NCBI GenBank assembly: GCA_035276365.1
Contig: DATELS010000330.1
Location: 1 to 53,310, forward strand
Source: Thermoanaerobaculia bacterium
GTDB lineage: Bacteria; Acidobacteriota; Thermoanaerobaculia; Gp7-AA8
DNA: 53,310 nt
Direction of reading: 5' to 3'
Shown: piece by piece, positions 37,915 through 53,310 of the stretch
How the letters are laid out: every line of letters begins with the position of its first letter
Numbering within the stretch: the stretch's first letter is position 1
Position numbers and translations under genes: made by a program
The notes under the pieces: model-generated
Database searches by the model: none
Seen by the model: the letters and a program-made list of their open reading frames with translations, nothing else
Told to the model about the DNA's origin: nothing

Positions 37915-38730
37915 TCAGCGCATCGCTTCGATGGCGTCCCACATCGCGGTGACCTCGGGCGGAAGCAGATCGCGGTCATTGCGTGCCGCCGCCCGCTGGT
38001 CGTGCTTCGACACCTCCACGCCCGGCGTTCCATCCGCCGACACCGTGACGGAGAGCCGGAAGCCGAAGCCGCCACCCACGGCCGCGCCACCCATGTCCGA
38101 GCACCAGCGACACGCGCCATCCGCTTCCGGTTCACTCGTGCCTCCGCCGAGGGACGTCGTGGGGCGGCCGCACTGCGGACAAATCATCATCCGCGTGGCT
38201 CGAATCGCTGCGTGGAGTGCACCACGCGCGGCGCTCAGCGTCTCGAGCGTCGCCGCATCAGCCCACGGCGGCAACGAGGAAATCACTGTCCAGAGAACGA
38301 GACCCACTTCGTACAGCAGATTTCCCGTCTGCACGCGACACGCCTCGCTCCAGATCGTGAAGTAGTTGTCGGCCCTGCGCGTACCAGGCGGCGTGTAGCA
38401 GAACACGCATGTTGCGTCATACCGGAGCGTCGAAGAGTCGCGACGGTCCAGATGAGAGACGAACTGCATGCGTGCGCGCCCGGTGAACGACTCGCTGGCG
38501 CTCCAGAACCGTTCGAGCTCGCGCTTCACCTTCTTCGTCGGCCAGCCGCCGGTGCGGTCGAAGACCTCGAGGAGCGCCGCGCTCGTGGTTTCGAGAAGGT
38601 CCGCCACCAGCGCCCGGTCCGCGACTCGCCATCCCTCGAGATACGAGCGGAGCGGCACAGCGCCGGGCGCGCTGCCGCACAACGGACAGCGGAAGTGAAA
38701 CATCCAGAGCTGCGCGCGTTCGCTGCTCAT
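37915..38730 (-). CDS. Hypothetical protein with three Cys pairs (zinc-ribbon-like)
   Basis: Contains FRCPLCGS, CVFC, and ICPQCG...ACRWCS. No family recognised. Confidence 0.5.
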   Translation of the reverse strand: MSSERAQLWMFHFRCPLCGSAPGAVPLRSYLEGWRVADRALVADLLETTSAALLEVFDRTGGWPTKKVKRELERFWSASESFTGRARMQFVSHLDRRDSSTLRYDATCVFCYTPPGTRRADNYFTIWSEACRVQTGNLLYEVGLVLWTVISSLPPWADAATLETLSAARGALHAAIRATRMMICPQCGRPTTSLGGGTSEPEADGACRWCSDMGGAAVGGGFGFRLSVTVSADGTPGVEVSKHDQRAAARNDRDLLPPEVTAMWDAIEAMR

Positions 38731-38791
38731 TGGTCTCAGTCTATCGAACTACTCGATGCGCCACGCGAACGGGCCGGGGTAATGTGTGGGG

Positions 38792-39461
38792 ATGCCACCC
38801 TTCGATGACGCCGCCCGACTCGCGCGCATGACGGAGTGGGCGAAGACGATTGCCTCCGAGGTTGCGGACGACCTGCAGCAACACCACATCTTCTGGCAGG
38901 TGCAGGACATCATCCGCGCCAACCCTCAGCTCACGAACGCACGCAGCCACTTCTTCCAATGGATGGGCGACGTCTTCGTCGCCTCGGCCGCCGTTGCCGT
39001 TCGCCGACAAACCGACAACTCAGACGACAGCGTTTGCCTGCGTCGTTTGTTGCGCGAAACCAAGGAGTATGTCCACATCGTCACGCGCGCGCACTACCTG
39101 TCGTTGTGCGGCGCTCCTGATGACGAGGTCGACTTCGACAACAGCTCGTTCGATCAGTGGGCAGGCGAAGGCGGTGATCATCTCGACCCGAACCTGGTGG
39201 ACGCCGATCTCCAGTCGCTGCTCGACGTCTCCGAGCGCATCCGCCACTACGCGAACAAGCGCGTCGCCCACTACGACCGTCGCGGCGTCACGCCCGGCAT
39301 GATGCCCACGTTCGACGCTTCTCGACGAAGCGTACAAAGTGATCGAGGCGCTCACGCAGAAGTACCACCTCATTTTCACGGGAGTGTGGATCGGGCAGCT
39401 GCGGCCGACGATCATCTATCCATGGACGGACGTGTTTCGGGTGCCGTGGATTCAGCAATGA
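38792..39461 (+). pseudogene. Hypothetical (possibly Abi/HEPN-like) gene interrupted by a single frameshift near 39313-39322
   Basis: The frame from ATG 38792 reads well up to ...HYANKRVAHYDRRGVTPGMMPTFDA, then becomes Arg/Ser/Ala-rich and runs antisense through the next gene. The +1 frame continues LLDEAYKVIEALTQKYHLIFTGVWIGQLRPTIIYPWTDVFRVPWIQQ*, ending at 39461. Confidence 0.5.
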
Positions 39462-39509
39462 AGTCGCGATTGCCGGAGCGAAGGCGCGCCCGAAGTCTTC
39501 GGCAGCAGA

Positions 39510-40355
39510 CTACTCCGCCGAACCGCGGGACCGTCGCTGCTTCAACTTCGAGATCGGAACAGAGACGAATGCCGAGTGGTGAACCATCGGCAGATGGAAC
39601 AACCCCCATCGCGGGAGGCCGTACTTCTTTTTCAGATACGTCAGCACGCCATGCTCATCGCGCCGGTCGATGTCGCAATCTGCAACGAACGCGATGCCAG
39701 CACTCTCGAGCGCGTAAGGGTCAACCACGCCGCCTTCGTCCGAATCGAACCAGCGAAACAGGGCTGTCTCGCGGAACTCGGCAAGCCGATCTGCGAACGG
39801 GTTGAGGAGCAGCGTAAACGTGCGGCCGGTGTCGAGAACCACAGCGCTCAGCTGCGGATACTTGAAGAAAACACTGCGGTGGAAGAAGTAGCACTGAACC
39901 GGAGCAGTCTCGCCGAGCCGTGGCATCCGGATCAGATTCGCGCTCCCGAACGCGGTATCGTGCACCTGCTTCATGAGCGTCGTGGCGTCGTTGAATTGCG
40001 GATCGATGTAGAACCAGATCAGCTTGAACGGATCGCCGGTCGCATCGATGGCGTCGAGTTGCTTGACCGCGTGCGCCATCGTCTTCTCCGTCGGTGCTGA
40101 GAAGCCCATCGGATGATGGAGCAGCTCGGTCTTGCCCTCCTTGCGAAGCGTCCGAGCGATGGACTCATCGCTGCGACGCCGCTTCACCTCGATCAGGTAC
40201 CGGTTGGCGTCGTCGGCAGCGAGCAGGTCACACGTCTTCCGTTCAGCCGTGCGCGCGAGCTTCTCCGCCCGAAACCCCATCTCGTCCAACCGACCGATGA
40301 CGTACTCCTCCTCGGCCGTGATCGCCGTGTCGATGACAGGGTCCTGGGAGGACAT
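39510..40355 (-). CDS. PD-(D/E)xK (restriction-endonuclease-fold)-like protein
   Basis: Start at MSSQDP. N-terminal EEEYVIGRLDEMGFRAEKL...TCDLLAADDANRYLIEVKRRR shows the E...D...E-V-K pattern. The C-terminal 180 aa are unassigned. Confidence 0.55.
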   Translation of the reverse strand: MSSQDPVIDTAITAEEEYVIGRLDEMGFRAEKLARTAERKTCDLLAADDANRYLIEVKRRRSDESIARTLRKEGKTELLHHPMGFSAPTEKTMAHAVKQLDAIDATGDPFKLIWFYIDPQFNDATTLMKQVHDTAFGSANLIRMPRLGETAPVQCYFFHRSVFFKYPQLSAVVLDTGRTFTLLLNPFADRLAEFRETALFRWFDSDEGGVVDPYALESAGIAFVADCDIDRRDEHGVLTYLKKKYGLPRWGLFHLPMVHHSAFVSVPISKLKQRRSRGSAE

Positions 40356-40434: not shown

Positions 40435-43400
40435 GTGAAGCGTCCCCGCTCCGGCGGCCCGGGCATGCACTACGGGCTGCTCTACCAGGTCTTCAGCAGT
40501 CTCGGCCGAGCGCTGACGGTATCGGTGCAGGAGGATCGTCGGACCGCCCAGTCGATCGTTCTGGTCGTCGAGCCTTCCGGTGGAGACCTCGTCGAGACTG
40601 GCCTAAAGCAGCGCGATGTCTATCAATACAAAGCGCGAAGCAGTCGGCGGCCTTGGTCTCTCAAGGACCTGATTGACAAAGTGTTGCCTGACCTCTACCG
40701 AGCCGTTCCTCCTGTGCCGGACCTCCCGACGCGGTACTGGCTCGTAACGGAAGGCGGCGCCGGTGAGTGGCAGGAAGCTCGTGCCCTGTTTGCGAAGCTC
40801 GCCACGATCCCGGCGGAACAGCTGCCTCGCGCGCTCGACGACGAGGCCAAACGAACGTATCTGCCGGGTCGCCGACATACAGAGCGCGAATTTTTTCTCG
40901 ACGTTGGGCGGCGCGTGACGAAGCGTAGTGGCGAGCTCGACGGCGAGACGTTGTCGCGAGTGCAGACGCTTCTCATCGACTTCGAGATCACAACGGTCGA
41001 CTTCCCCGCGGTTCAGGAGCAGGTCACGAACCTGCTCCTCGGCTTCGTTGAACATTACGAGAGCCTGCCGCACACCGTGGATGCCTTGGTCGGTCTACTG
41101 GTGCGTTGGGGTGCCGAGGGCAATCGGAGCTTCACCGTCGACGAGCTTCTTCGGTCCGCCGGCCTCGCACCGACCTCACTCTCTCTCCTGCCGCTGGCTC
41201 ACGACCGCCTCCGCGAACGCCTCGACTCACAGCTGGCCAAAACGACCTACGACCGCACGAAGCACGTTCACCGGCCGATCGCGTGGCCGGAAGGGAGAAG
41301 CGTCCTCTGCATCACCGGCGAAAGCGGCACGGGAAAGACCAGCCTCCTCGGGCAAGTAGCGGATGCGGGGGTCGAACACGGCCCGGTGGTGTTCTGGCGT
41401 CCACGTCGCAACGAGAAGGATGCTCTTCGCGGCGCAGCCGACGAGGTATGGCGTCAGATCCTCGGACACGACGCGAGCTTGCCGCTCGACGCGATCGCTC
41501 GCCGGGCCGACACACTCAAGCTCGGCGGGAGTGACTCTTGGCTGACCGTTTGTCTCGATGTGACTGCCGATCCCGCATACGCCGCAGAGCTCATCGGCGA
41601 AGACTGGAACAAGTGGCGGATTCGGATGGCGTTCACCGCCAACGCTTCGTCGGCCACGGTCTTGGCGGAGTCGAAGCATGGCAATGCCGTCGTTGTGACC
41701 GTGAATGAATTCACGCCACGGCAGATTCGCGAATTCTTCACGCGGCGTCAGATGGATTGGCGTCGCATTCCGCCGTTCGTGATCGAACCACTGCGTCGAC
41801 ATCCCATCCTCGCCTACGTGTACGCCGAGCTCGGGGATGGGGAGACGTGGCGCGATACGAACGAGTACGCACTCTTCCGACACTTCTGGCGGCGTCTCAC
41901 CGCTGCGCCCGGACAACATGAGTATCCGAACGATGCCGCTGCGTTGATCAGACTCGCCGACACGCTTCTGGAGGTGCCGGACAACACGCACTGGACAGCG
42001 ACGCAGATGGACGATCTTCGGATCGACGGCGCGACGAGAGTGCGATTGCAACGGCTCGGCTGGATTCGCAACGACGCGGACGGGCGTGCGGAATTCGTGC
42101 ATCAGCGATTGATGAACTGGGCGGTCGCCGAAGCAGCGATCGAGCGCTGTCGCGCAACGCGATGGAGCAGTCACGGGTTGGGCACGTACCTCGAGAAAAT
42201 TCTGTCTGGGAGCGATGACAATCACCGACGCTTCGGATTCGCGCCGATGGACGCGCTCTCCATTGCACTCTCGTCCGGGATGCAGGCAGGCGAAGTCGCG
42301 ACCGTTCTCGAGACGATGGAGAATCCGAGGTTTTACGAGAACCTCGTTCCTTCATTGGGTGCTGCGGTCGTCCCGGCGCTTCTCGAGCGCCTCAGGCGAG
42401 TCGGAAGCCGGCGTCGCTCGCCGAACAGTTACGTACGTGCCGCGATCCTCGCCATCGCCGCGCAGGAGTCGCTGCATTCGAGTGTCGTCGTTGAGATGCT
42501 CAATGATTCGCATACGAGTGTGCAACGCGCCGGTGCGGAGCTCTTGAAAGAACATCCTGCCGGAGAAGCACTCGATGCGCTCTGGCGCCTCCGTAACCAG
42601 CTGCGAACGACGGAGTCCGACGATCCGCTCATCAATCATCTCGATCTCGATGCTGTTGGAGACGCGCTCGAGGCGTGCGTTCGTGTGGATCCGCATTGGC
42701 TTGCCCGAACGGTTCGAGAGACGACGGAGCTCGAGAAGCTCGCTCGACTCGTGCGATTGCTCGCCACACTCGCGAACGAATCCGGCATGCAGATGTGGCA
42801 CGGATCGAAGGACGCGATTCTCGGGCTTGCGGATGATGATGCGATTGCCACCGCGGCCGCGCGCTGCATCGGGCGGTACCGGGACTCCCATGAGGTGCCG
42901 AGACTCGTCGCCTGGATCGCGGAACGATCTCGGGAGGTGGTGGAGGAGAGTTTCTCCGCTCTCGCGTTGGTCGAGCCCTCGAAGGCGCTCGAGCTGCTGC
43001 GGGACTCGCTACGCATTGCCGATGTGGCACATGTCTGGAGCGTGTGGTGGTCGCGCCTGTTTGTCTACGACCGATCTGCAATGAACGAGATCGTCATGCA
43101 GGCGTTGCGAGGGGGCGGTCTGCTGCGCAGGATCCGCATCGATGACATGGCGTGCAGCCGACTTGCGCCCGCCATCGTTGAGCGGCTGGATTATCTGGTC
43201 GAGACCGAGGGGGCAGACGAGGCCGAGGCGTTGCACAAAGAGATCGACCATTTGATGGGATTGCTCGCTCGAGCGCACACACCGGACGCGCTGCGTTTTC
43301 TCCGGGGTCTCGCCGCGACCGACGTCGGTCGACAGCTTGCCGCCTATGCTGCGAGACGTAGCGCCACGTCCAACATCCGGCCGGACAGCTTCCTCGAGCA

Positions 43401-44937
43401 TGCCGAGACAGTGCTGCTGAGGATCGGCGGTGAGCCGCTCCATACATTCCTTACGGCACAGATTGCGCGGCGGGATCATGGATGGTTCCCTGACAAGATC
43501 CGCGTGTTCCAGGCCGCGCCGTCAGCCGATGCACGTCGCATCATCGAGAACCTCCTCGAGGAGGTGTGGGACGCGAAGCGCGGCGAGGACGATGACTGGC
43601 CGGTCCGCTCGGCGTGCATCGAGACGCTCGCAGCGATGGGCGACCGCAGCGTCGTCATGCGCGCCGAGGAAAGTGGCCGCCTCTCTTACTCGGGTGACTT
43701 TCCGCGAGCCATACGGGATCTTCCGCCTGCAGACGATCGCGAGACGATGCGCCTTCTGCAGAAGGCAGCATCCGATGATGATGCGATACCCGCAATCCGC
43801 GCACTAGCATGGTCGCGGCGAACGGACGTCGTTGGACACCTTGTCGAGCAGGTAGTGTCTTCGCGTCCGGAAGAGGTCCGGAACGCAGCGCGCACTGCAT
43901 TGAAGTATCTGCCGACCGGCCCAATGGCGGCGAATCACCGTGAGCTACTCCGTGCGGCAGAAGAGCATTCAACGTACCTCGATGCACTCTTTCGGGATGG
44001 CGCACCGGAAGCGGTCGGCGACGCGGCGAACTATCTCGGTGCGATCGGAACGAAGAGTTGGACGTTCGACGACGCCCACTCCGCCGCATGGTTGGTCGTT
44101 TACCGCGAGCGTTTGGAGCTGGCTTCGCAGGTGTGGCAGTGGGCGAAGGGTCACACGCGTTTTTACTGGGAGAGCGACGACACGATCTGGCGAGCCCTCG
44201 GGTATGTGGAGAACGAAGATGCAGAAGAGTTCCTGCTCGCCGAGGCGTATAGCGGAAAACGTGGCGAGATCAATCCAGCAGCAATTGAAGCCCTCGCGCA
44301 TCGACAGCGCGATGAAGCATTCGCCGCGGCCATGCACTTGTTCGATGAGGGAAAGGGTGCGCGCGCATCCGCGCCCGACCTGCTCATGGAGATCGACAGC
44401 GCCCGAGCCGTAAAGGTGATCGCGGAACGTCTGCCCCGCGAGCGCAACGTTCTCATTCGCGCCAGTTCGTGTATCGCCTTGCGCGGAGTCGGCGATGACA
44501 TTCGGCGGATGGCGCATGACTGGATGAATCACGCTGATCCGTTCACGCGCGCGTCCGGATGCGAGTTGCTCGGATGGCTGCAGCCCGAGGATACGAGCCG
44601 ACTGCGCGACATAGCCCTCGCGGACATCGATCCGATGGTGCAGGTGTTCGCCTTGGATGCGTTCGCGCTCCACGAGTCGCAGCGCGTCACGGGCGAGCTC
44701 CTTGCGGAGCTGCGGAGCGCGGAAAGCACGACAGCTTGGGCAGTCACCGACGCTCTCATCACATCCGCGCACTGCTTTCTCCTCGATCGATTTGACGATC
44801 CGCTGGCGCTTTATCCGGCGCTGAAGGGAAAGCAAGGAGCTCTTCGTGTCAGCGCTGCAGAGCGGCTCAAGAAACGAGTCGAGGAAGTGCAGAAGAAGTA
44901 CGACGAGCCGATGCGTCGCGACTTCTATCGGCACTGA
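40435..44937 (+). CDS. Antiviral-STAND (Avs/NLR)-like protein: Cap4/DUF4297-like nuclease N-domain, P-loop NTPase, and a long HEAT-repeat C-terminus
   Basis: 1500 aa (alternative ATG at 40465). N-domain is GLLYQVF...VVEPSGGDLVE...DVYQYKARS. Walker A is ITGESGTGKTSLL. Multiple HEAT/PBS-lyase-like repeats are present (DSHTSVQRAGAELL, DPFTRASGCELLGWL, DPMVQVFALDAFA). Confidence 0.75.
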   Translation: MKRPRSGGPGMHYGLLYQVFSSLGRALTVSVQEDRRTAQSIVLVVEPSGGDLVETGLKQRDVYQYKARSSRRPWSLKDLIDKVLPDLYRAVPPVPDLPTRYWLVTEGGAGEWQEARALFAKLATIPAEQLPRALDDEAKRTYLPGRRHTEREFFLDVGRRVTKRSGELDGETLSRVQTLLIDFEITTVDFPAVQEQVTNLLLGFVEHYESLPHTVDALVGLLVRWGAEGNRSFTVDELLRSAGLAPTSLSLLPLAHDRLRERLDSQLAKTTYDRTKHVHRPIAWPEGRSVLCITGESGTGKTSLLGQVADAGVEHGPVVFWRPRRNEKDALRGAADEVWRQILGHDASLPLDAIARRADTLKLGGSDSWLTVCLDVTADPAYAAELIGEDWNKWRIRMAFTANASSATVLAESKHGNAVVVTVNEFTPRQIREFFTRRQMDWRRIPPFVIEPLRRHPILAYVYAELGDGETWRDTNEYALFRHFWRRLTAAPGQHEYPNDAAALIRLADTLLEVPDNTHWTATQMDDLRIDGATRVRLQRLGWIRNDADGRAEFVHQRLMNWAVAEAAIERCRATRWSSHGLGTYLEKILSGSDDNHRRFGFAPMDALSIALSSGMQAGEVATVLETMENPRFYENLVPSLGAAVVPALLERLRRVGSRRRSPNSYVRAAILAIAAQESLHSSVVVEMLNDSHTSVQRAGAELLKEHPAGEALDALWRLRNQLRTTESDDPLINHLDLDAVGDALEACVRVDPHWLARTVRETTELEKLARLVRLLATLANESGMQMWHGSKDAILGLADDDAIATAAARCIGRYRDSHEVPRLVAWIAERSREVVEESFSALALVEPSKALELLRDSLRIADVAHVWSVWWSRLFVYDRSAMNEIVMQALRGGGLLRRIRIDDMACSRLAPAIVERLDYLVETEGADEAEALHKEIDHLMGLLARAHTPDALRFLRGLAATDVGRQLAAYAARRSATSNIRPDSFLEHAETVLLRIGGEPLHTFLTAQIARRDHGWFPDKIRVFQAAPSADARRIIENLLEEVWDAKRGEDDDWPVRSACIETLAAMGDRSVVMRAEESGRLSYSGDFPRAIRDLPPADDRETMRLLQKAASDDDAIPAIRALAWSRRTDVVGHLVEQVVSSRPEEVRNAARTALKYLPTGPMAANHRELLRAAEEHSTYLDALFRDGAPEAVGDAANYLGAIGTKSWTFDDAHSAAWLVVYRERLELASQVWQWAKGHTRFYWESDDTIWRALGYVENEDAEEFLLAEAYSGKRGEINPAAIEALAHRQRDEAFAAAMHLFDEGKGARASAPDLLMEIDSARAVKVIAERLPRERNVLIRASSCIALRGVGDDIRRMAHDWMNHADPFTRASGCELLGWLQPEDTSRLRDIALADIDPMVQVFALDAFALHESQRVTGELLAELRSAESTTAWAVTDALITSAHCFLLDRFDDPLALYPALKGKQGALRVSAAERLKKRVEEVQKKYDEPMRRDFYRH

Positions 44938-45540: not shown

Positions 45541-48500
45541 CATCGACCGTTCGCTTGATGCGTTGGATCTCAGCCGCGACGCTCTCATAAAAGTCTCGAG
45601 CCGGAGCCGAGATCGGTAACGCATCGCGCGCTGCGATTGCGCTCGTGAGGATCTGTCGCCGCAGGTCATCGGTCGTGGTCCGCGGCACGGCACATCTCAG
45701 CAGCGCATCGTGCATCGCATCGCGCAGCTCCGAATCAACTGCTGCCGCATCGGCGAGGAGCTGCGTGACGAACGCCGAGTCCTCCAGAATCAGGCGCCGG
45801 CACGCTTCGCCACGAACGCAGTTAGCGACGAACGTGACGGCCGAATCCGTTCGCTCCGCGCTCTTCCGCTTGAGGAATGCGACCGCTGCCGCATTCATCT
45901 TCCCTGATGCGAGTGTGAATAGCCGCGGCGCGTCGTACGCCATCCCGTTCGCGTACGCATCGGCGATCTTCGTGAGCAGCAATTCGTACTCCTCGGAGGT
46001 CGAAAGCGCTTCATCAATCACCACCTCCGGCGGATCCATCGGCAGAGCCGTGAAGCGCAGCATGCTCACGCGGTCCTCCCGCTGGATACGACGGAGCAGC
46101 AAGTCGATGATCGCAAGCGGGTCGCGGCGGCCGCACTCCTCGACGAAGTCGCCGAGATGAACGCCGTCGAGCTGCGGCACCGTTTCGAGCTTCGCAATGC
46201 AGCTTCGGAGCTCGTTGGCGGTCAACGCCGAAAACAGAGTCTGCTCCGGCTCGTCGAACATCTCCGCCATGCGTTCGACGTCCTTGTGATCGCCGCGCAA
46301 GTCGGTGCCCAGAAGAAGCGCAGCTGCAGTCCGTGGGTGGCGTTTCGCAAGGCGAGGTAGGCTACTCAGGCCGGCGACCGCTACTTCGCCGGCCATCGCG
46401 AAGAGGGCGGTGATGTTCTCGAGATCCCTCTCGTTCAGATCGTCTTCGCCGATCCACCATGCGTACGACGCAACCACCGTCGCCGCCATCTCACGCGCAT
46501 CGTTCCGCACGATCGTTGAGATCAGGACGTGGAACCGAAGCTCATCCGACGCGCGCAACGGCATCACGATCGAATTCGCGTAGCGTGCAAGCTCCGGCGC
46601 GTTCGCGGCCGTGAGCAGCTCCGCCATTTCAGCGGCGACCACGGGATTCGCGTTCGCAACGGCGGTGAGAAACGGCGCCGGATGTGGATGCAGATCGAGG
46701 ATTCGCAGCCCGCCGATGGTGTCGTCGAGGTGCCGAATGGCATCGCTGGCCTGAGTTGTCGCCGCAAACTCTTCAGCGGTTGCTCTGAGAAGACGCGCCG
46801 TCTCGTCTTGGTCGACCTCAACCGTGCGATGCGAGCCCAACGGGCTATTGATGAACCGCGCGACTCTGTCGATCAACGTCTCCGATAGCGAGGCGAGTAC
46901 CTGCTGCGCAGCCTCTCGCATGTCTTCGTCGCCGGTGTCCCGCTCCGCGTACCACTCAACAGTCTCGCGAATCTGAATGCCGATGACGGGATCGGCATTG
47001 CGCTCCGCAAGACGACGCAAGATGCTCATCGCTTCGAGGCGGTGCGGTTGCCATGCTGCGGCCTGTTCGTCCGTGACCAACAGGCCGCCGAGGCTGTGTG
47101 GCCGCTGCAACGCTTCGCCGAGCGCCTTCACCGCCGTCCCAACCACTTGTCGGTCGGAGTGATCCAGCGCTTTCACGACAATGGCTCTCGCTCTACTTCG
47201 CGTCCCTTTGAGGTATTCGGCGGGCACTAAGAACGATCGCGTGGTGATCGTCAGATCGTCAACAGTGTGGTCCATGCCGGTCTTCATGAACAGCGACTGC
47301 ACGACGCGAACGATGCTGATCCATTCCCCTGGTGTTTGTGTGATCTTCAACCACGTCTCGACACGGTTCATGAGCCGCCGATGAACCCACACAGGCTTCC
47401 GCAGACCGGGCGCCATGATCTCGCGCAGAACGCTGACGGGATCTTTGTCGTCACTGTTCTTCCGAGGCTTCGGAAGGCGCTCGTCGTTCGCCAGACGCCA
47501 GAGGAAGTCGCACGCCGCATCGAACGTCGACGGGTCGTACGCCGCGTATCGAACGACCTCGGGGAGGGCCGCGACGACGTCGCCGTGCGACGTCGTTACG
47601 AGCGCTGCATAGGGGCCGGTCTCTTCGGCCGCGGTCGGGAACTCGAGGGCGAGCTTCGCCAGCTCGAGCATCTTCCTCGGAAGGAAGTACCCCACTTCCT
47701 TCAAAGTGCCCAGCATCTGTCGTCGTTCGGAGTTCGGCGCGGCTTTGAACGTCGCGACGACTGAATCCCATACCGTTCCGAGTACGCGGAGCTCCTCGCC
47801 GGTCTTCCGGCCAACTCTCCAGTCGACCGCGGCCAGATTGCGAAGGAGAGCGTGATCGAGCGTGCCGACCGCGGCGACGATCTTCTCGACGAACGTGCTG
47901 CCGTTCACGCCCGGCCGCGTGCACGCTACGCCGAGGATGTAGTCGGAGAGCAAGTCGGGGACGATTCGGAGACCATCATGGCGCCGGGCGAGCACGCCGT
48001 GGCGATGGAGACGTTCGCACCACGATGCGGCGGCTTCTGCATCCATAGACGTCAGCGCCTGAACGGCTGCAATGAAGCGTTGAGACAACGGTTGGATCGG
48101 CGCGAGTGCCGCGATGATCTCCAGAAGTCCTCGCACCTCGGCCTCGTCAGACCCGGGCTTCGCGTTCTCCACGATCTCATCGAAGAATCGCGCGAGCGCG
48201 GTCTCGCGGAACAGCTCGTCGTTGGCCAGCAGCGACGGAGCGACACGATGCTCGCGCAGCAGGCGGCCTCCCACGATCGTGATGAGCGGACAGTCTCTCG
48301 TCGCTGCGGCAAGCTCGCGAGCGAGATGCCGGAACTCCGGCCCAAGCACTTCCGCTGCGAGCGCTTCCACTTCCGACAGCGTCATTTGCTCGAGCGGCTC
48401 GACGCTCGCCATCTCGCGCACGTCGATGTGGTGTCGTGAGGCGAGCGACGGCAGCTCATCGCGCAGCTGCGGGCGCGTCGCGAGAACGAGTTTTGTCCGT

Positions 48501-49345
48501 GTGCGCACAGCATGCTGGAAGAGCAGTCCGAGATCCTTGCGACGGTGCGCGTCATCGATGATGAGAATCGTGTTCGAGACGGGGAGCTCGCCGAGAGCGG
48601 GAGCCGTGATGTCGAAATCGAGCTGCGCGAAGTACACGTGGTGTGTCCGTTCCGCTCGTTGCGCGAATGCCTGCAGGAGTTTGCTCTTCCCGATGCCGCC
48701 GCGGCCGGGGAGGACGAAGATCAGCTGTTCCGGATTTGCGACGAACGTTTCGAGCTTCTGCAGATCTTCGCTGCGGCCGACCAGCGCGTAGGAATGATTG
48801 AAGATGCGGCTCGAATCGAGAAACGGCGCAAAGAAATCGTCCGGCTCGAGGAACGCGCCGAACGGCTCGATGCCGAGGAAGTCACGGCACAACTGGCCAC
48901 TAAAGTTCGTCCGGACGATGCGCCGGGCGACCTCGGTCGGCAGAGCGCGCACCTTCGCCGAGATGTCGTCCACGTCCCATACCGTCCAGAGCTGGTGCTT
49001 CTTTTCTTCGTCCCGCACACCTGCCGTCGCTGCGCAAGCGATCAGCGCGTAATAGCGGCTCGCCTGGTACGTCACGGTTTCCGCGAGGTTTCGAAGATCC
49101 GCAGGGCCGAACTTCTGCACGCGCCGGCATTGATGGCAGACGGTCTCGCCGCTCACGTCCGTCGAGACGAGGTCGATGCCTCCCTGCGGATCGCCGGGGA
49201 CGCCGTGCTGATGGCATTCGACGATCTCTGGAAGAGCACTCACAAGGTCGCGGCAGAACGACTGGAAGCGCTCGGGCGTGAGTGCCAGTAGAGGGAGTAG
49301 TTGCACCGTCGGGCGCACGGCGGCGGGTAGAAACGCATCAGGCAT
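45497..49345 (-). CDS. Antiviral-STAND (Avs/NLR)-like protein: Mrr-like restriction-endonuclease N-domain, NB-ARC-like P-loop NTPase, and a helical-repeat C-terminus
   Basis: 1282 aa. N-domain is LTPERFQSFCRDLVSALP...GDPQGGIDLVS...VCHQCRRVQKF (D-GID...QCK). Walker A is LPGRGGIGKSKLL and Walker B is ILIIDDAH. The remaining roughly 900 aa are helical ARM/HEAT-like sequence. Confidence 0.75.
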   Translation of the reverse strand: MPDAFLPAAVRPTVQLLPLLALTPERFQSFCRDLVSALPEIVECHQHGVPGDPQGGIDLVSTDVSGETVCHQCRRVQKFGPADLRNLAETVTYQASRYYALIACAATAGVRDEEKKHQLWTVWDVDDISAKVRALPTEVARRIVRTNFSGQLCRDFLGIEPFGAFLEPDDFFAPFLDSSRIFNHSYALVGRSEDLQKLETFVANPEQLIFVLPGRGGIGKSKLLQAFAQRAERTHHVYFAQLDFDITAPALGELPVSNTILIIDDAHRRKDLGLLFQHAVRTRTKLVLATRPQLRDELPSLASRHHIDVREMASVEPLEQMTLSEVEALAAEVLGPEFRHLARELAAATRDCPLITIVGGRLLREHRVAPSLLANDELFRETALARFFDEIVENAKPGSDEAEVRGLLEIIAALAPIQPLSQRFIAAVQALTSMDAEAAASWCERLHRHGVLARRHDGLRIVPDLLSDYILGVACTRPGVNGSTFVEKIVAAVGTLDHALLRNLAAVDWRVGRKTGEELRVLGTVWDSVVATFKAAPNSERRQMLGTLKEVGYFLPRKMLELAKLALEFPTAAEETGPYAALVTTSHGDVVAALPEVVRYAAYDPSTFDAACDFLWRLANDERLPKPRKNSDDKDPVSVLREIMAPGLRKPVWVHRRLMNRVETWLKITQTPGEWISIVRVVQSLFMKTGMDHTVDDLTITTRSFLVPAEYLKGTRSRARAIVVKALDHSDRQVVGTAVKALGEALQRPHSLGGLLVTDEQAAAWQPHRLEAMSILRRLAERNADPVIGIQIRETVEWYAERDTGDEDMREAAQQVLASLSETLIDRVARFINSPLGSHRTVEVDQDETARLLRATAEEFAATTQASDAIRHLDDTIGGLRILDLHPHPAPFLTAVANANPVVAAEMAELLTAANAPELARYANSIVMPLRASDELRFHVLISTIVRNDAREMAATVVASYAWWIGEDDLNERDLENITALFAMAGEVAVAGLSSLPRLAKRHPRTAAALLLGTDLRGDHKDVERMAEMFDEPEQTLFSALTANELRSCIAKLETVPQLDGVHLGDFVEECGRRDPLAIIDLLLRRIQREDRVSMLRFTALPMDPPEVVIDEALSTSEEYELLLTKIADAYANGMAYDAPRLFTLASGKMNAAAVAFLKRKSAERTDSAVTFVANCVRGEACRRLILEDSAFVTQLLADAAAVDSELRDAMHDALLRCAVPRTTTDDLRRQILTSAIAARDALPISAPARDFYESVAAEIQRIKRTVDVTPEDEDFEDEEEW

Positions 49346-49540
49346 GAGTCATCTCGCTCCGGTGTGGAAACATCCGGACTGCCGGGCTCTACTCCTGCCG
49401 AGTGGCTAGCTGCTGCGGCCACGAGCTGGCGAGCTACAGCCTCCACCGGTTTTCCGCGGCAAGCAGCCTCCCGGCAAAAGCTGCGGTTCGTCGTCTCGTG
49501 GCAGGTTCCCTGGCACACGTCACGAGCGGTAAGAAGCCCC

Positions 49541-50500
49541 TCAGGAAGTTTGTTGAGGAGCCAATCGGGGGCACGCATGGGGCAACACGAACATCTCGGC
49601 GTTGTAGAAGTTGAGGAAGCCGACCCCGAGACGGTTGTACTTCTGAGAGGCGGAGAGGCACTTCGTGCAGAACACTTCGGCCCGGTCGTTTAGATCGTCG
49701 AACAGAATGATGCCGTCGAAGACGGATCGCTCGAACGGATGGCGCACGAACACGAGCGCATCCTGCAGACCCGCCCGCGAGCCGGCTTGAAAATGAGGTA
49801 AGCGCCCGCTCTGCTGACCTCCGAGAACGAGGTAGTACTCGATGATAGACGCAGCCTGGATTCGCCGCTGCTGTTCGGACGTAAGGGTCGTCTTGCGGAG
49901 GATCGCCATCTCGAGCGATGCGGTGCTGGTGTTGAGCGCTCCCGCTTCCACGGCCGGCAAGTGAACATCCACCGCGACATTCAGTCGAGTGAATTCCGGG
50001 CGCCACACGACCTCAGCGCGACGTGTGTATCGATGGAGCACGCCGAACTCGGGAGTCTCAGGGAGCTCGACGTGTGTGGTGGCGTTCGAGTGACGATTGA
50101 AGGGCTCCGGCCGTCCGCTCATGATGGCGCGCAGGAGCTGACGAGCGAACGTCTGGTAGTCGCCGGGTTTCGGTAGGTTCCGGAGGTCGAACTCATCGCT
50201 CGACTGGCGATCCAGCCGCAGGTAGATGTCGCACTGATCGAGATTGGGGTGCTGCTGAAAGCGTCTCGAGGATCACGCGCTTCAGCGCGAGCCATTGCAC
50301 CTCGAACTGCAAGAAGGCGCTGCCGCGGTCATTCACTTGGCCGACTGAGAAGATATCGGTCAGCTCGAATCCCAGCCGAGCGCCTGCGACGGTGATGACG
50401 GCGTCAGGAGGATCGTTTGTGGGGGCGTCGACGGCTGCTCCCGCGAGCTGCGGTGCAATCGGGTGAGGCGCTCCAGTACCTGACGCTCGGAATCTCGCAT
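49541..50500 (-). pseudogene. Degraded gene readable only across three reading frames (at least two frameshifts), directly upstream of the STAND gene
   Basis: Frame 1 from ATG 50500 reads MRDSERQVLERLTRLHR... Frame 2 reads ...DAVITVAGARLGFELTDIFSVGQVNDRGSAFLQFEVQWLALKRVILETL. Frame 3 is ORF 49541..50122 extended upstream, reading FQQHPNLDQCDIYLRLDRQSSDEF...IILFDDLNDRAEVFCTKCL... The shifts lie near 50395-50405 and 50258-50268. Confidence 0.45.
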
Positions 50501-50530
50501 TGCACTCACATCAAAGTGTCGCGAACCGGC

Positions 50531-51226
50531 TCAGAATGGAGTGACGTCGGTCTTCCGCGTCTTCTGCGCTTCCTCACGCGCCGTGCGCCACGCGGCCGTC
50601 TCGATCGAACCGTTGGTCAAACGCCATGATTGATCCGATGCCAGGTAGATGTGCATCGTCTCGTTTTCCCACGCGACGACATAAGTTTTGTAATCGAAGG
50701 GGACAAACTCGGGTCGCGAGCCAGCGTAGCGGCCGCCGACGTAGCTCCGTAGAGTTTTCTTTTCAACGCCTGTATGGCGGAACGTTCGTTTGAATGTAGG
50801 TGTGCCGTATTTCTGCTCGAATGCTGTCGCGAGCTCGTGGTACGTGGGTGGAGCGTATTGCGCCATGCCGGCCATGAGCCCCTGAGTGAAGTCCACGGCG
50901 ACGAACATCCCCTGATGGAAGACGTAGTAGGTGTTGATCACCTCACCGGCGACCTTGAACGCCTTACTGCGGTCCTTCGTGTGACAGCGAGTCGCGTTCT
51001 TCGGGTAACCCTCCCATGTCGCTTCCTCGCATTTCATCGGCCCGAGGGTGGCTTGAGCTTCGTCGAGTGTCGCGCCGAACTTCACCCCGCGGAAGTCGGC
51101 CGGTGCCTGGGTCCACGGCTCGGGCGACTTCACCTCTTCTTCTTTGGTGACATTGTGAGACTGTGCGTGCGCAACGACCGCCGCGATGATCACAACCGCC
51201 AAACAGCGTCCAATTCGCATAGTCAT
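50531..51226 (-). CDS. Secreted hypothetical protein
   Basis: Start at MTMRIGRCLAVVIIAAVVAHAQS (signal peptide). Balanced composition and no recognised motif. Confidence 0.5.
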   Translation of the reverse strand: MTMRIGRCLAVVIIAAVVAHAQSHNVTKEEEVKSPEPWTQAPADFRGVKFGATLDEAQATLGPMKCEEATWEGYPKNATRCHTKDRSKAFKVAGEVINTYYVFHQGMFVAVDFTQGLMAGMAQYAPPTYHELATAFEQKYGTPTFKRTFRHTGVEKKTLRSYVGGRYAGSRPEFVPFDYKTYVVAWENETMHIYLASDQSWRLTNGSIETAAWRTAREEAQKTRKTDVTPF

Positions 51227-51255
51227 CTTCAAAGCTCCTGGTCGTTCTGATCGCG

Positions 51256-51999
51256 TCACCGCGTCTCCACCGAGATCTCTGCGCCTTCGTACACGAACGT
51301 GAAGAGATACTCCCTCCGTTCGTCGCCCATGCGAATCGGAATCAGATAGCGATACTTGTTGCCCTTCGCTGCGGCGACTTTCTCCTCGACCCGCGCGCGA
51401 ACATCAGCCGCCGACTCACCCGCGATCGGGCTCGCGGAGTCGCTGGTGGGGAAGAGGAACTTCTTCGATTCGCCGACCAGGTCCGCGGCGTGAACCCATT
51501 CGTCCAACTGCGTTCCGGCGACGATAATGGACGTCGGCGACGACGGCGGGAGCTCCTCCTCTTTGAGCAGCGACGATTCACCGCGGGCCAGCCGCCGCTT
51601 CATCTCCTCGAAGATGCGTTTTCCGCGTTCCTCCGAAGCCGCGCGAGACTCGTGACGAAGAGGATGGGAGGCATTCTGCTCATCGATGAACGCGCCGTCC
51701 TCCCAGAGCACCTTCGCACTCTCTCCGCCTTTGTTCTCCACGACGAGCAGGAGTCCGTGCGAATTCAGGTTCGCGGTGAACGCGAGCCGATCATCCGAAA
51801 ACGTCGTCACGCTCCCGAGGTACTTCGGATCGGCGGTGCCGAGCATGTCCGGCGTTGCCGTCGAAGTCTTCCCACCCGCGGTCACCTTCACCTCTACGAG
51901 ACGAACCTGCGGCGCAGGTCGAACGAACGTCAACGCACTGGCGCTCCAGGCGAGCAACACGACACTCACGACTGCGACGGATGCAGCTCTTGAATTCAC
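51256..51999 (-). CDS. Secreted or anchored hypothetical protein
   Basis: GTG start 5 nt after GGAGAA. N-terminus is VNSRAASVAVVSVVLLAWSASA. No recognised motif. Confidence 0.45.
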   Translation of the reverse strand: MNSRAASVAVVSVVLLAWSASALTFVRPAPQVRLVEVKVTAGGKTSTATPDMLGTADPKYLGSVTTFSDDRLAFTANLNSHGLLLVVENKGGESAKVLWEDGAFIDEQNASHPLRHESRAASEERGKRIFEEMKRRLARGESSLLKEEELPPSSPTSIIVAGTQLDEWVHAADLVGESKKFLFPTSDSASPIAGESAADVRARVEEKVAAAKGNKYRYLIPIRMGDERREYLFTFVYEGAEISVETR

Positions 52000-52085
52000 G
52001 CGGATTCTCCTCTGGACGATGGACTCACCGGGAAGCACGCGCGCTACCGTAAACGCGACCGGTTGTCGGCCTGAGATTTTGCGGG

Positions 52086-52991
52086 ATGTACTGCCTGGCG
52101 GCAAGGTCGTGCGCGCTTCCTCGAGTTACAATAACTCTCGTGACGATTCTGCGTCCCCCGGATCCAGCCAGCATCGCCTTGGCGAATGCCGTCCAGCGTC
52201 GGCTCCCGCGGCTCCTCGACGAAGCTCGTCGAGGCGAGCCGCTCCTGTCGCGCGCTCGCACCGTCAAGGCGGCGCGCGGTCCGGTTCGTGTCTCGGTCGA
52301 TCTGGGCGCAGGAGCCCTTTCGCAGGCGACGTACGACCTCGCCTTTCTCTGTTCGGGTGTTTCGACTCCAGCCGAGTTCGCGGCCTCGCTCGAGAACGAC
52401 GCGTACTTTGACGTGGTGGCAAACCGGATTGCGAGAGTCATCGCGGACGATCAAAGTGGTCGAACGGAGGACGCCTGGTATGCAGAGGACCGATCTCCAG
52501 GTTTCCTCGGTCTTCCCGCGTACGCTCCGACGGATCCAACGGACGAGTGGATCGGCGGCCTCGCGCCAGACACGGAGGGGTGGAGCCCCCGGGTTGCGCA
52601 CGTCGTAACAAACGACCCGCGATCAATCGCACAGGCATTGATCGACCTCTCGCTCGACTGCATGGACGATCTGACAGAGCCGACCTTGATTGCGGCCGGA
52701 CGACGCCTCGCCGCCCAGGTACGACGCGGCTTCCAGGTACAGCAACGGTTCTACTCGATTCGCGGCGGCGTTCACTACATGCACGTCGGCGCCGCGGAGA
52801 TGTTCTGCGCGCCTGCGGCCGACCCGAATGCCGCGTTTGTGCTTCATCCTGACGATTTCGCGCTGCACCATACGCCGCCGCTGGTCACGGCATCGGGTGG
52901 CTCCCTGCTGGCACGCGTCGATCAGCAACTCGTGTGTACGCGCCGATACCTTCTCGGCCGCCTCCAGCGGTATGACCGTCTTCAGCACTGA
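52086..52991 (+). CDS. Hypothetical cytoplasmic protein
   Basis: A 301-aa ORF with coding-like composition in its second half. The start is uncertain. Divergent from the gene at 51999. Confidence 0.4.
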   Translation: MYCLAARSCALPRVTITLVTILRPPDPASIALANAVQRRLPRLLDEARRGEPLLSRARTVKAARGPVRVSVDLGAGALSQATYDLAFLCSGVSTPAEFAASLENDAYFDVVANRIARVIADDQSGRTEDAWYAEDRSPGFLGLPAYAPTDPTDEWIGGLAPDTEGWSPRVAHVVTNDPRSIAQALIDLSLDCMDDLTEPTLIAAGRRLAAQVRRGFQVQQRFYSIRGGVHYMHVGAAEMFCAPAADPNAAFVLHPDDFALHHTPPLVTASGGSLLARVDQQLVCTRRYLLGRLQRYDRLQH

Positions 52992-53310
52992 CTACGTAAG
53001 TCGGATCGACACGACCTACAGTCGGATGCCGGTGCGCCTGCGGCCGCTCCTGTACAGAGTCGTCTGTGCACCGGAGAACGCGGCGCTGCGTGCGGAGATC
53101 GAAGAGTACGTTGCCGAGCTCCATCCGGACGATGCGCCGCGATACATCGATCGCCTGCAGAAGTCGCACGATCAGGGGCCCGCATTTCAGAACACCTACC
53201 ACGAACTGGTGGCCGGGCATCTTCTGCGCACTCTGGGTTTCTCCCCCCGGTACGACCCGACGATCATCATCGGCGGAAAACCTCGAACGCCCGACTGGGA
53301 CGTCCCTGCG
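52972..53310 (+). CDS. Hypothetical protein, N-terminal 113 codons (continues beyond the window end)
   Basis: Open frame from ATG 52972 to the window end. Reads MTVFSTDYVSRIDTTYSRMPVRLRPLLYRVV...YHELVAGHLLRTLGFSPRYDPTIIIGGKPRTPDWDV, which could be the start of a PD-(D/E)xK-like core. Not in the ORF track because it has no stop. Confidence 0.35.
   Translation, partial: MTVFSTDYVSRIDTTYSRMPVRLRPLLYRVVCAPENAALRAEIEEYVAELHPDDAPRYIDRLQKSHDQGPAFQNTYHELVAGHLLRTLGFSPRYDPTIIIGGKPRTPDWDVPA

What the first reader, a model, noticed from the sequence alone, without database searches (positions are those of the whole stretch)
37915..53310. Probable defence island with several nuclease-fold genes and two decayed genes, bounded on the left by a repeat array
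Between the repeat array and the window end the genes change from envelope and metal functions to the following set.
- A triple Cys-pair zinc-ribbon protein (37915-38730).
- A frameshifted Abi-like ORF.
- A PD-(D/E)xK-like protein.
- Two nuclease-STAND giants.
- An HNH-like ORF.
- A multi-frameshift pseudogene.
- Two secreted unknowns.
- A terminal partial ORF with a possible PD-x-D/E-x-K start (TPDWDV).

Clustered, rapidly decaying nuclease and NTPase genes are typical of defence islands. No integrase was seen, so the acquisition mechanism is unclear.
Basis: inference. Interest (0 to 1): 0.6.

Follow-up and report, generated by a model that had tools for sequence, protein, structure and literature searches.

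The report
Variable phage-defence island in an acidobacterium
The stretch is the left half of a roughly 29-kb chromosomal defence island, holding two large nuclease-tipped sensor proteins, several small nucleases, two broken genes and (just beyond the window) an Argonaute system; close relatives gain and lose its genes one at a time, which makes it an ordinary but well-documented example of a known kind.

Summary

**Gene content**
- Nearly every listed gene is real.
- The 300-aa ORF has a resolvase-like PD-(D/E)xK nuclease fold.
- The 1500-aa protein combines a Cap4-type nuclease, a STAND NTPase and HEAT repeats.
- The 1282-aa protein combines an Mrr-like head with an nSTAND5-type NTPase.
- The 195-aa ORF belongs to a zinc-finger HNH-like family.
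- The AbiU2-like gene has one frameshift. The 320-aa gene has two small deletions.
- Corrections: the zinc-ribbon protein has four Cys pairs, not three. A real gene at 52086-52991 was missed.

**Extent**
- The window is a whole contig. Contig C621 continues it through a unique 26-nt overlap, a colinear ORF and shared synteny.
- C621 adds a long-B Argonaute plus nuclease system. This is the only PADLOC-recognised system in the island.
- The island ends at core genes found in 35 of 35 congeners.

**Variability**
- Five related loci show gene-sized gains and losses.
- The second giant is a clean 4.07-kb insertion.
- The HNH gene comes and goes on its own.
- One relative keeps only stumps of both giants.

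**Limits**
- Island composition is atypical for the genome but resembles parts of the metal cluster on its left.
- No integrase or transposase was found across 72 kb.

Verdict: new member of a known kind, moderate interest.

The parts
37702..37891 (.). 63-bp tandem repeat (about 2.5-2.7 units) with imperfect GATCAC-N6-GTGAYC palindromes. It marks the left edge of homology with the island of relative G002.
   Evidence: TRF and sequence. Related copies occur in many congeners, including one unit about 90-130 bp upstream of the G002 giant1 orthologue. No other copy exists in this MAG.
37915..38730 (-). 271-aa protein with four CxxC pairs (probably two zinc ribbons). Near-orphan of unknown function, absent from the related island versions.
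   Evidence: GC3 0.79. CxxC at residues 15, 108, 184 and 207. No family match. Two weak partial hits in 401 genomes of the phylum.
38786..39461 (+). AbiU2-like HEPN gene broken by one frameshift near 39312-39322. The likely start is the MTEWAK codons at 38828.
   Evidence: PF18734 at 25.1 bits, E 1.4e-5, profile positions 34-139 of 193, cut-off 26.8. Six-frame reading shows the C-terminal 49 residues in another frame. The start region is conserved in G002, fused upstream of giant1.
39510..40355 (-). 281-aa protein with an N-terminal Hjc-like PD-(D/E)xK nuclease domain and a C-terminal domain of about 170 aa with unknown fold. It sits divergent to giant1.
   Evidence: 733 representative homologues. 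D43, E56, K58 and Q99 are invariant. AF2 pLDDT 93. Foldseek matches Hjc at probability 0.98-1.0. 7 of 46 members hit Pfam Hjc. The same position next to giant1 is kept in L043 (84%) and L053 (88%).
40435..44937 (+). Giant1, 1500 aa (likely start M11 at 40465). Cap4/DUF4297-type nuclease (about residues 1-250), STAND NTPase (Walker A near 295-302) and HEAT-repeat C-terminus. Avs-type architecture.
   Evidence: Pfam HEAT_2 above cut-off; nSTAND_NTPase5 and AAA_16 below cut-off. E46, D51, Q64 and K66 are invariant. Fold matches to HerA-DUF4297, HamA, Cap4, LmuA and Avs3 at probability 1.0. Present in 9 of 34 congeners. Orthologues are 67-91% identical.
44953..45540 (+). 195-aa zinc-finger HNH-like protein. 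Stand-alone gene present or absent independently of its neighbours. Its 3' end overlaps the giant2 3' end by 44 nt.
   Evidence: Family of 75 proteins, some named HNH or McrA by their sources. C72, C75, H87, E88, C108, C111, H112 and H116 are conserved. Pfam HNH only E 0.33. Present in L044 (96%), L053 and G021; absent in L043 and G002. Distant members lie in unrelated contexts.
45497..49345 (-). Giant2, 1282 aa. Mrr-like PD-(D/E)xK head (residues 20-123, with QxR in place of QxK), STAND NTPase (P-loop near 211-235) and a helical C-terminus. It lies on a 4.07-kb insertion (about 45490-49558).
   Evidence: Mrr_cat at 19 bits, cut-off 21. AAA_16 and nSTAND5. Relatives carry PF04471 plus PF25199, or DUF4062 heads. 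K-to-R holds throughout the close clade. Insertion breakpoints relative to L044. No terminal repeats of 8 bp or more. Absent in 60 relatives.
49541..50500 (-). Pseudogene of a 312-329-aa protein of unknown function, carrying a 1-nt deletion (about 50448-50452) and a 2-nt deletion (about 50256-50258).
   Evidence: Intact homologues at 58-92% identity. DNA alignment with two intact copies. Segment coordinates. The copy is intact in L043, L044 and L053.
50531..51226 (-). Signal-peptide protein of about 231 aa, function unknown.
   Evidence: 91% identical to the L043 230-aa gene, with the start at MTMRIGR. No family match.
51256..51999 (-). Protein of about 247 aa with an N-terminal hydrophobic segment, function unknown.
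   Evidence: 94% identical to the L043 247-aa gene. No family match.
52086..52991 (+). Protein of about 282-301 aa, function unknown.
   Evidence: 77% identical to the L043 282-aa gene. No Pfam match.
53026..53310 (+). First 95 codons of a 298-aa protein that continues on contig C621. Its TPDWDV...FLCDVFT motif has no lysine.
   Evidence: Unique 26-nt overlap and open frame across the join. The joined protein aligns colinearly, at 82% identity, with the L043 319-aa protein. No Pfam match.

Best explanation
Window 37.7-53.3 kb is the left part of a chromosomal defence island of about 29 kb. It continues for about 13 kb on contig C621 and ends at core genes (a GSDH-dockerin protein and an M48 peptidase). 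The island is a set of independent modules.

1. **Giant1.** A single-protein sensor built like an antiviral STAND (Avs): Cap4-type nuclease, STAND NTPase and HEAT-repeat sensor. Inferred mechanism: the repeat domain binds a phage protein, ATP-dependent oligomerisation brings the nuclease heads together, and DNA is cut indiscriminately, aborting the infection.
2. **Giant2.** The same logic with an Mrr-like head. It was acquired as a 4.07-kb insertion.
3. **Three small nuclease-type genes:**
   - an Hjc-like PD-(D/E)xK protein that stays next to giant1;
   - a free-standing zinc-finger HNH-like gene;
   - a frameshifted AbiU2-type HEPN gene.
4. **A block of five genes of unknown function.** One of them is decayed here.
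5. **On C621:** a further four-gene block of unknown function, then a long-B Argonaute with its partner nuclease.

The content turns over by gene-sized insertions and deletions without a resident integrase. The most likely route is recombination between shared flanking genes after DNA uptake; this step is inferred.

**Shown:** the genes, folds, motifs, decay, boundaries and variability. **Inferred:** antiphage activity and its triggers.
For: **Architecture and folds**
- Giant1.
- Giant2.
- Hjc-like protein.
- HNH-like family.
- AbiU2-like gene.

**Known defence system on the same scaffold**
- pAgo_II matched over its full length at E 5.5e-144. Aga_Helical-REase matched at E 2.7e-15. The two genes overlap.
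- The pAgo resembles the long-B RsAgo at E 2.6e-60.
- Long-B pAgo-nuclease systems are experimentally shown defences (PMC10620215, PMC13535254).
- Cap4 and Mrr are recognised Avs effector heads, and at least 90 Avs families are described (bioRxiv 10.64898/2026.01.04.697583).

**Contig join.**

**Chromosomal location and right boundary**
- M48 is in 35 of 35 congeners. In G002 it lies on a 5.08-Mb contig, about 12 kb from that genome's version of the island.

**Variability.**
- G002 fills the same slots with a DUF4062-TPR protein and another 1349-aa STAND.

**Decay**
- Pseudogenes.
- Stumps of both giants in G021.
- G002 is a deletion derivative that keeps the AbiU2 start region.

**Composition.**
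Against: - No gene inside the window reaches a PADLOC or NCBIfam threshold.
- The AbiU2 and Mrr_cat matches are below Pfam cut-offs.
- The Cap4 head is seen only by fold, from a model with mean pLDDT 69 built on 8 sequences.
- Giant2 and its close clade have R in place of the catalytic K.
- About half of the genes have no recognisable function, and two of them are secreted, which is unusual for defence genes.
- Composition does not separate the island from the metal cluster.
- The left core flank could not be defined.
- No experiment supports antiphage activity.
Confidence: 0.8

Rival explanations
1. A generic flexible genomic region with no particular link to phage defence. On this view the STAND giants are signalling or transcription-type NTPases, and the small nucleases are remnants of restriction or repair genes.
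For: No PADLOC hit inside the window. Many genes lack any recognisable function. Secreted proteins lie in the middle of the region. The neighbouring cluster is an accessory metal-resistance region with similar composition.
Against: - The N-terminal heads are Cap4-type and Mrr-type nucleases, not DNA-binding output domains.
- Head swapping to DUF4062 occurs in relatives.
- A bona fide pAgo-nuclease system lies on the same scaffold.
- The equivalent slots in G002 hold further conflict-type genes.
Confidence: 0.1
2. The region belongs to a plasmid, an integrative element or a mis-binned contig, rather than to the chromosome of this organism.
For: The whole contig is compositionally atypical, at the 65th-98th percentile of tetranucleotide distance. 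It carries metal-resistance cargo typical of mobile elements. It is the longest contig of a fragmented MAG.
Against: - The continuing contig ends in core genes with typical composition.
- The same core genes flank the related island on a 5.08-Mb contig of G002.
- No integrase, transposase, relaxase or replication gene was found in 72 kb.
Confidence: 0.05
3. The module serves conflict between bacteria (polymorphic-toxin or immunity cassettes) rather than conflict with phages.
For: In G021 and a JGI contig, the HNH gene and the stumps of both giants lie directly downstream of a 1783-aa RHS toxin gene. A more distant HNH homologue also lies near an RHS/teneurin-type gene.
Against: - No RHS, secretion-system or toxin-delivery gene lies in the window or on C621.
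- The giants have intracellular sensor architecture.
- The RHS neighbourhood is not shared with this genome, where the best match is 33% identical on another contig.
Confidence: 0.05

Closest known systems
Antiviral STAND proteins with nuclease heads (Avs3 and Avs7 with a Cap4 nuclease; Avs families with Mrr heads)
   Same: Three-part build: an N-terminal PD-(D/E)xK nuclease, a central STAND NTPase with a P-loop, and a long C-terminal helical-repeat region. The giant1 head matches the Avs3 effector domain (8dgc) and Cap4 by fold. Patchy distribution and location in a variable island are also shared.
   Different: - No sequence-level match to the PADLOC defence models, which gave no hit at E <= 0.01, or to solved Avs structures.
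- The sensor is annotated as HEAT, not TPR.
- The NTPase is closest to nSTAND5, below cut-off.
- Giant2 has QxR instead of QxK.
- Trigger and activity are untested.
Long-B prokaryotic Argonaute with associated nuclease (BPAN; PADLOC pAgo class II with Aga_Helical-REase)
   Same: A 785-aa pAgo matches the class II model over its full length. An overlapping downstream gene matches the helical-REase partner with a DpnII-MboI-type domain. The pAgo is similar to RsAgo and EcAgo structures.
   Different: It lies on contig C621, outside the window. No activity or guide data exist. It is unique among 35 genomes of the genus.
Defence islands and hotspots as described for bacterial genomes (clustered, fast-turnover immune genes at a fixed chromosomal site)
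   Same: The site is fixed next to core genes in two species. Cargo differs in each relative. Turnover is gene-by-gene, decayed copies are present, and GC is atypical.
   Different: No integrase or other mobility gene was found, and the left core flank is undefined. Only one module is recognised by a 2023 defence-system catalogue.
AbiU2 (HEPN) abortive-infection proteins
   Same: Match to PF18734 over profile positions 34-139.
   Different: The score is 1.7 bits below the curated cut-off and the gene is frameshifted. The canonical arginine of the HEPN motif could not be assigned with confidence from the sequence.
Archaeal Holliday-junction resolvase Hjc (PD-(D/E)xK fold)
   Same: The N-terminal 110 residues have the Hjc fold and the D...ExK triad. 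Some family members hit Pfam Hjc.
   Different: It has an extra C-terminal domain of about 170 aa with no fold match. It is a bacterial family of 250-280-aa proteins kept next to a STAND gene, so a resolvase role is not implied.

Membership tests
Defence island | Two or more immune-type systems clustered within tens of kb | tested here: met
   One catalogued system (pAgo_II plus Aga nuclease), two Avs-architecture proteins and an AbiU2-like gene lie within about 29 kb of the joined scaffold.
Defence island | Content varies between close relatives while the flanks are conserved | tested here: met
   The right-flank M48 peptidase is in 35 of 35 congeners. Giant1 is in 9 of 34, giant2 in 0 of 60 and the pAgo in 0 of 34. 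Five haplotypes differ by whole genes. The left core flank was not defined.
Defence island | Composition departs from the genome | tested here: met
   GC is 0.61-0.64 against a genome median of 0.654. Tetranucleotide distance is at the 89th-98th percentile and returns to the 19th percentile over core genes. It is not distinct from the metal cluster.
Antiviral STAND (Avs) | Effector head, STAND NTPase with Walker A, and a C-terminal repeat sensor in one protein | tested here: met
   Giant1 has a Cap4-like fold, a P-loop with nSTAND5/AAA_16 matches, and HEAT_2. Giant2 has Mrr_cat and AAA_16/nSTAND5, and its relatives share the same Pfam set.
Antiviral STAND (Avs) | Match to a described Avs family model | tested here: not met
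   No PADLOC model, including the Avs models, matched at E <= 0.01. The only hit was PDC-S27 at E 0.0054 for giant2. No PDB sequence match to Avs3 or Avs4. The roughly 90 families of the 2026 preprint could not be searched.
Antiviral STAND (Avs) | Activation by a phage protein and protection from phage | not testable with these tools
   Needs experiments.
Cap4/DUF4297 nuclease domain | PD-(D/E)xK fold of the Cap4 type with acidic residues and QxK | tested here: met
   Foldseek probability 1.0 to 9c1m, 8zue, 6wam, 6vm6, 9nxx and 8dgc. E46, D51, Q64 and K66 are invariant in 8 homologues. Model quality is moderate, at pLDDT 69.
Cap4/DUF4297 nuclease domain | Sequence-profile match to the Pfam family | tested here: not met
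   No Pfam hit for residues 1-282 at E <= 10, nor for any of the 8 homologues at E <= 1.
Mrr_cat restriction-endonuclease domain | Profile match above cut-off and a D...(E/Q)xK triad | tested here: inconclusive
   19 bits against a cut-off of 21, covering profile positions 2-106 of 115. D and Q are conserved, but K is R in giant2 and all close relatives. More distant relatives keep K and hit PF04471.
HEPN_AbiU2 | Profile match above the curated cut-off | tested here: inconclusive
   25.1 and 23.6 bits against a cut-off of 26.8. Only the first fragment of the frameshifted gene matches.
HNH (beta-beta-alpha-Me) nuclease | Zinc-finger CxxC pairs with catalytic His | tested here: met
   C72, C75, H87, E88, C108, C111, H112 and H116 are conserved in at least 97% of 76 sequences. 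Some sources name members HNH or McrA.
HNH (beta-beta-alpha-Me) nuclease | Pfam HNH profile match | tested here: not met
   E 0.33, 11.6 bits against a cut-off of 21.4.
Long-B pAgo plus nuclease (PADLOC pAgo class II) | Full-length pAgo_II match with an adjacent Aga nuclease partner | tested here: met
   pAgo_II at E 5.5e-144 over model positions 2-724 of 724. Aga_Helical-REase at E 2.7e-15. The genes overlap at C621 8331-8343. Pfam finds Piwi and DpnII-MboI domains. The pair lies outside the window.
Integrase-borne genomic island, ICE or prophage | Integrase, recombinase or transposase, and att-type direct repeats at the ends | tested here: not met
   No such domain in any ORF scanned across C330 and C621. 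No tRNA gene. No repeats of 8 bp or more at the giant2 insertion ends.

The most novel reading that the evidence does not exclude
Two blocks of unknown function are kept together between the STAND genes and the Argonaute, and they could be undescribed multi-gene immune systems.

- **Five-gene block:** proteins of 298, 301, 247, 231 and 320 aa, two of them with signal peptides.
- **Four-gene block:** a 608-aa protein with a DALLDLGDVVIVFEIK nuclease-like motif, a 535-aa protein, a 157-aa protein, and a 307-aa protein that joins a zincin HEAGH motif to an RNA-polymerase alpha-CTD-like domain.

Separately, the free-standing HNH-like gene stays intact in one relative where both flanking giants have been reduced to stumps. 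It could be a selfish nuclease gene, or a part that is selected for on its own, and it may promote turnover at this site.
Probability: 0.25. Interest if true: 0.55.

Novelty: new member of a known kind. Interest (0 to 1): 0.38.

Why it matters
- **A natural series of island versions.** Six versions of one island exist in closely related uncultured soil Acidobacteriota. They show how defence islands change: a whole sensor gene inserted cleanly, a small nuclease gene gained and lost on its own, in-place decay by 1-2-nt deletions, and large deletions that leave stumps. All of this happens without a resident recombinase.
- **Candidates for phage-protein screens.** It adds two Avs-type sensors with HEAT-like repeat domains from a phylum with almost no experimental immune data. 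One of them has a conserved lysine-to-arginine change in its nuclease head.
- **A practical warning.** A 2023 catalogue search of the window alone would have returned nothing. The one recognised system lies on the next contig.

Tried and rejected
- **Family searches on the window's genes.** PADLOC and NCBIfam gave nothing significant.
- **PDB sequence searches.** Giant1, giant2 and the 608-aa, 535-aa and Aga proteins gave nothing useful.
- **Pfam on the giant1 head.** Neither the head nor its homologues gave a Cap4 match.
- **Paralogues.** No island gene has a paralogue in the MAG.
- **Left core flank, first attempt.** The membrane protein at 35851-36915 is itself patchy, at no more than 45% identity.
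- **Left core flank, second attempt.** The aminotransferase next to the G002 island is a G002-specific paralogue, 47-49% identical to the other genomes' copies. The left core flank therefore stays undefined.
- **Exact-sequence look-up of the 242-aa ORF.** This failed, probably because the called start is wrong.
- **G021 neighbours.** The P450, TetR, DUF5985 and RHS genes have no close counterpart in this genome. That locus shares only 1.7 kb with the window.
- **The repeat.** It has no other copy in this MAG. Rfam found nothing credible in 36.8-53.3 kb.
- **The 535-aa protein.** It occurs in only 1 of 400 other genomes of the phylum, and without the 608-aa partner. No conserved operon could be established that way.
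- **Earlier notes of the scan.** Nothing was held on relatives or on the 535-aa protein.

Full report
**Setting.** The window is a complete contig, C330, the longest of 793 in a 5.2-Mb MAG with 65.5% GC. Earlier notes of this scan call the organism an uncultured acidobacterium. Positions 1-37.6 kb carry three OEP/HlyD/AcrB efflux sets, two P1B-ATPases, a CDF transporter, Lgt, a TonB-dependent receptor, an L,D-transpeptidase and a DsbA-like protein. A weak DUF305-like gene lies at 37141-37644.

**The repeat.** TRF finds a 63-bp unit repeated 2.5-2.7 times at 37702-37891.
- It has no other copy in this MAG.
- Related sequences occur in many genomes of the genus.
- One unit lies about 90-130 bp upstream of the giant1 orthologue of relative G002. 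The repeat therefore marks the left end of homology between the two islands.

**Genes of the window, left to right**
1. **37915-38730(-).** Coding-like GC3 of 0.79, four CxxC pairs, no family match. Only two weak partial hits in 401 genomes of the phylum.
2. **38786-39461(+).**
   - It matches HEPN_AbiU2 at 25.1 bits (E 1.4e-5, cut-off 26.8) over profile positions 34-139.
   - The frame breaks near 39312-39322, and the last 49 codons read in another frame.
3. **39510-40355(-).** The true start is probably M20 of the 300-aa ORF.
   - The family has 733 representatives of 250-280 aa, with invariant D43, E56, K58 and Q99.
   - The AF2 model has pLDDT 93. Its first 110 residues match archaeal Hjc at probability 0.98-1.0.
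   - 7 of 46 members hit Pfam Hjc. The C-terminal domain has no match.
4. **Giant1, 40435-44937(+).**
   - It has a P-loop with sub-threshold nSTAND5 and AAA_16 matches, and HEAT_2 repeats above cut-off.
   - Eight homologues share invariant E46, P47, D51, Q64 and K66.
   - A model of residues 1-300 has pLDDT 69 overall, with a good core at 60-200.
   - It matches HerA-DUF4297, Hachiman HamA, Cap4, Lamassu LmuA and the Avs3 effector at probability 1.0.
   - No Pfam profile sees this head.
5. **HNH-like gene, 44953-45540(+).** It belongs to a family of 75 proteins, some named HNH or McrA. C72, C75, H87, E88, C108, C111, H112 and H116 are conserved. Pfam HNH reaches only E 0.33.
6. **Giant2, 45497-49345(-).**
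   - It matches Mrr_cat at 19 bits (cut-off 21) over nearly the whole profile, and also AAA_16 and nSTAND5.
   - Among its 113 relatives many carry PF04471 plus PF25199. Some add an HTH domain, and others have a DUF4062 head instead.
   - In giant2 and all relatives above 50% identity, the QxK lysine is arginine.
7. **Pseudogene, 49541-50500(-).** It is a broken copy of a 312-329-aa protein. Alignment with two intact copies shows a 1-nt and a 2-nt deletion, both in short C runs and about 195 nt apart, with a stop in the shifted stretch.
8. **Remaining genes.** Two signal-peptide proteins, an unlisted gene at 52086-52991 and the terminal ORF are all real. All lack a recognisable function.

**The island continues on another contig.**
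- The last 26 nt of the window are identical to the first 26 nt of contig C621, and to nothing else in the MAG.
- The terminal ORF reads across the join to 298 aa. It aligns colinearly, at 82% identity, with a 319-aa protein of a related metagenome contig.
- The genes that follow on C621 (608, 535, 157 and 307 aa) are 74-83% identical to four genes next to giant1 in G002.

Further along, C621 carries three things:
- a 406-aa protein with a DpnII-MboI nuclease domain, overlapping a 785-aa Piwi protein;
- PADLOC calls these two Aga_Helical-REase (E 2.7e-15) and pAgo_II (E 5.5e-144, full length), and the pAgo resembles the long-B RsAgo;
- from 13.5 kb onward, a GSDH-dockerin protein, an M48 peptidase and a disulphide isomerase.

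M48 is present at 70-81% identity in all 35 genomes of the genus. In G002 it sits with the GSDH gene about 12 kb from that genome's island, on a 5.08-Mb contig. The island is therefore chromosomal, about 29 kb long, and bounded on the right by core genes.

**Composition.** On the joined scaffold, 39-66 kb has GC 0.61-0.64 (2nd-17th percentile) and tetranucleotide distance at the 89th-98th percentile. At 69-72 kb the values are typical. Parts of the metal cluster (12-30 kb) are equally atypical. Composition supports foreign origin but does not separate the island from its left neighbour.

**Variability**
- Giant1 is in 9 of 34 congeners and in none of 26 genomes outside the genus.
- Giant2 is in none of 60 relatives, apart from a stump in G021.
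- The pAgo is in none of 34 congeners.

Related versions of the island:

| Version | Content |
|---|---|
| L053/L054 | Hjc-like (88%), giant1, HNH, giant2 (93%), an intact 318-aa gene and the unknown block |
| L044 | giant1 (91%), HNH (96%), intact 319-aa gene; no giant2 |
| L043 | Hjc-like (84%), giant1 (81%), intact 320-aa gene; no HNH, giant2 or 608-aa gene; DUF4238 in place of AbiU2; pAgo pair present |
| G002 | giant1 (67%), then a DUF4062-TPR gene, the four-gene block and a 1349-aa AAA_16 protein |
| G021, and a JGI contig with the same gene order | see below |

- G021 shares only 1.7 kb with the window, at 87% DNA identity. That stretch holds the last 325 codons of giant1 (broken), an intact HNH gene and the last 51 codons of giant2.
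- In G021 this stretch sits between an RHS toxin gene and TetR/P450 genes that this genome lacks.
- Relative to L044, giant2 lies on a 4.07-kb segment (about 45490-49558) that replaces about 58 bp. No direct or inverted repeats of 8 bp or more lie at its ends.
- G002 keeps one repeat unit and the first codons of the AbiU2 gene fused to a 5' extension of giant1. It is therefore a deletion derivative.
- More distant HNH homologues sit in unrelated variable contexts, so the HNH gene is not an obligate partner of the giants.

**Interpretation.**
- The anatomy fits a defence island at a fixed chromosomal site with rapid turnover of modules.
- The two giants have the build of antiviral STANDs. Cap4 and Mrr are recognised effector heads for these proteins, and at least 90 families are described. 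I infer sensing of a phage protein by the repeat domain, NTP-dependent oligomerisation and nuclease activation.
- The pAgo pair matches long-B pAgo-nuclease systems, which have been shown to act by abortive infection.
- Antiphage activity of the window's own genes is inferred, not shown.
- Rival readings are a non-immune flexible region, a plasmid or mis-binned contig, and inter-bacterial toxin cassettes. They are weakened by the nuclease heads, the core-gene flank and the absence of delivery genes.

**Limits**
- The left core flank is undefined.
- Half of the genes remain without a function.
- The Cap4 assignment rests on a moderate-confidence model.

Noticed in passing
window 14009-17020 (-): A 1003-aa protein whose only recognisable feature is a C-terminal SEC-C motif. 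It sits inside the low-GC 12-21 kb stretch of the metal cluster and may be another foreign insert.
   Followed up: no
window 36866-37129 (-): A small membrane-protein ORF of about 88 aa (MIDPQSTYFALL...HLLHH...) downstream of the DUF305-like gene. Its DNA is 74-81% identical in six congeners, so it is a real conserved small gene.
   Followed up: partly
L038 (contig C621) 625-5818: A four-gene block conserved at 74-83% with G002.
- A 608-aa protein with a DALLDLGDVVIVFEIK PD-(D/E)xK-like motif.
- A 535-aa protein found in only 1 of 400 other genomes of the phylum.
- A 157-aa protein with a weak mad1 hit.
- A 307-aa protein that joins a zincin HEAGH motif to an RNA-polymerase alpha-CTD-like domain, and also matches a segment of PglW.
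   Followed up: partly
L038 (contig C621) 7123-10688 (-): A long-B type Argonaute with its helical-REase partner, unique to this genome among 35 of the genus. The same pair is present in metagenome contig L043.
   Followed up: yes
L014 (G021:C72) 7612-9311 and L027: An intact HNH-like gene lies between a frameshifted 325-codon stump of giant1 and a 51-codon stump of giant2, directly downstream of a 1783-aa RHS toxin gene. The small nuclease gene has outlived both sensors.
   Followed up: partly
window 45497-49345 (-), residues about 100-106: The catalytic QxK of the Mrr-like head is QxR (HQCRRV) in giant2 and in every relative above 50% identity. More distant relatives keep QCKR. It is a conserved substitution, not decay.
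   Followed up: partly
L009/L010 (G002:C2 1,051,800-1,064,500): The G002 version of the island fills the variable slots with a DUF4062-TPR protein (639 aa) and a 1349-aa AAA_16 STAND-like protein. Its giant1 carries a 5' extension derived from the start of an AbiU2 gene.
   Followed up: partly
window 53285-53310 and C621 1-26: The two contigs overlap by exactly 26 nt. The assembly broke inside a single-copy gene, for no reason visible in the sequence.
   Followed up: partly
window 47854-47892: A 39-nt stretch inside giant2 has 86-89% matches at scattered places in several genomes, including another contig of this MAG. It is probably a chance GC-rich match.
   Followed up: no
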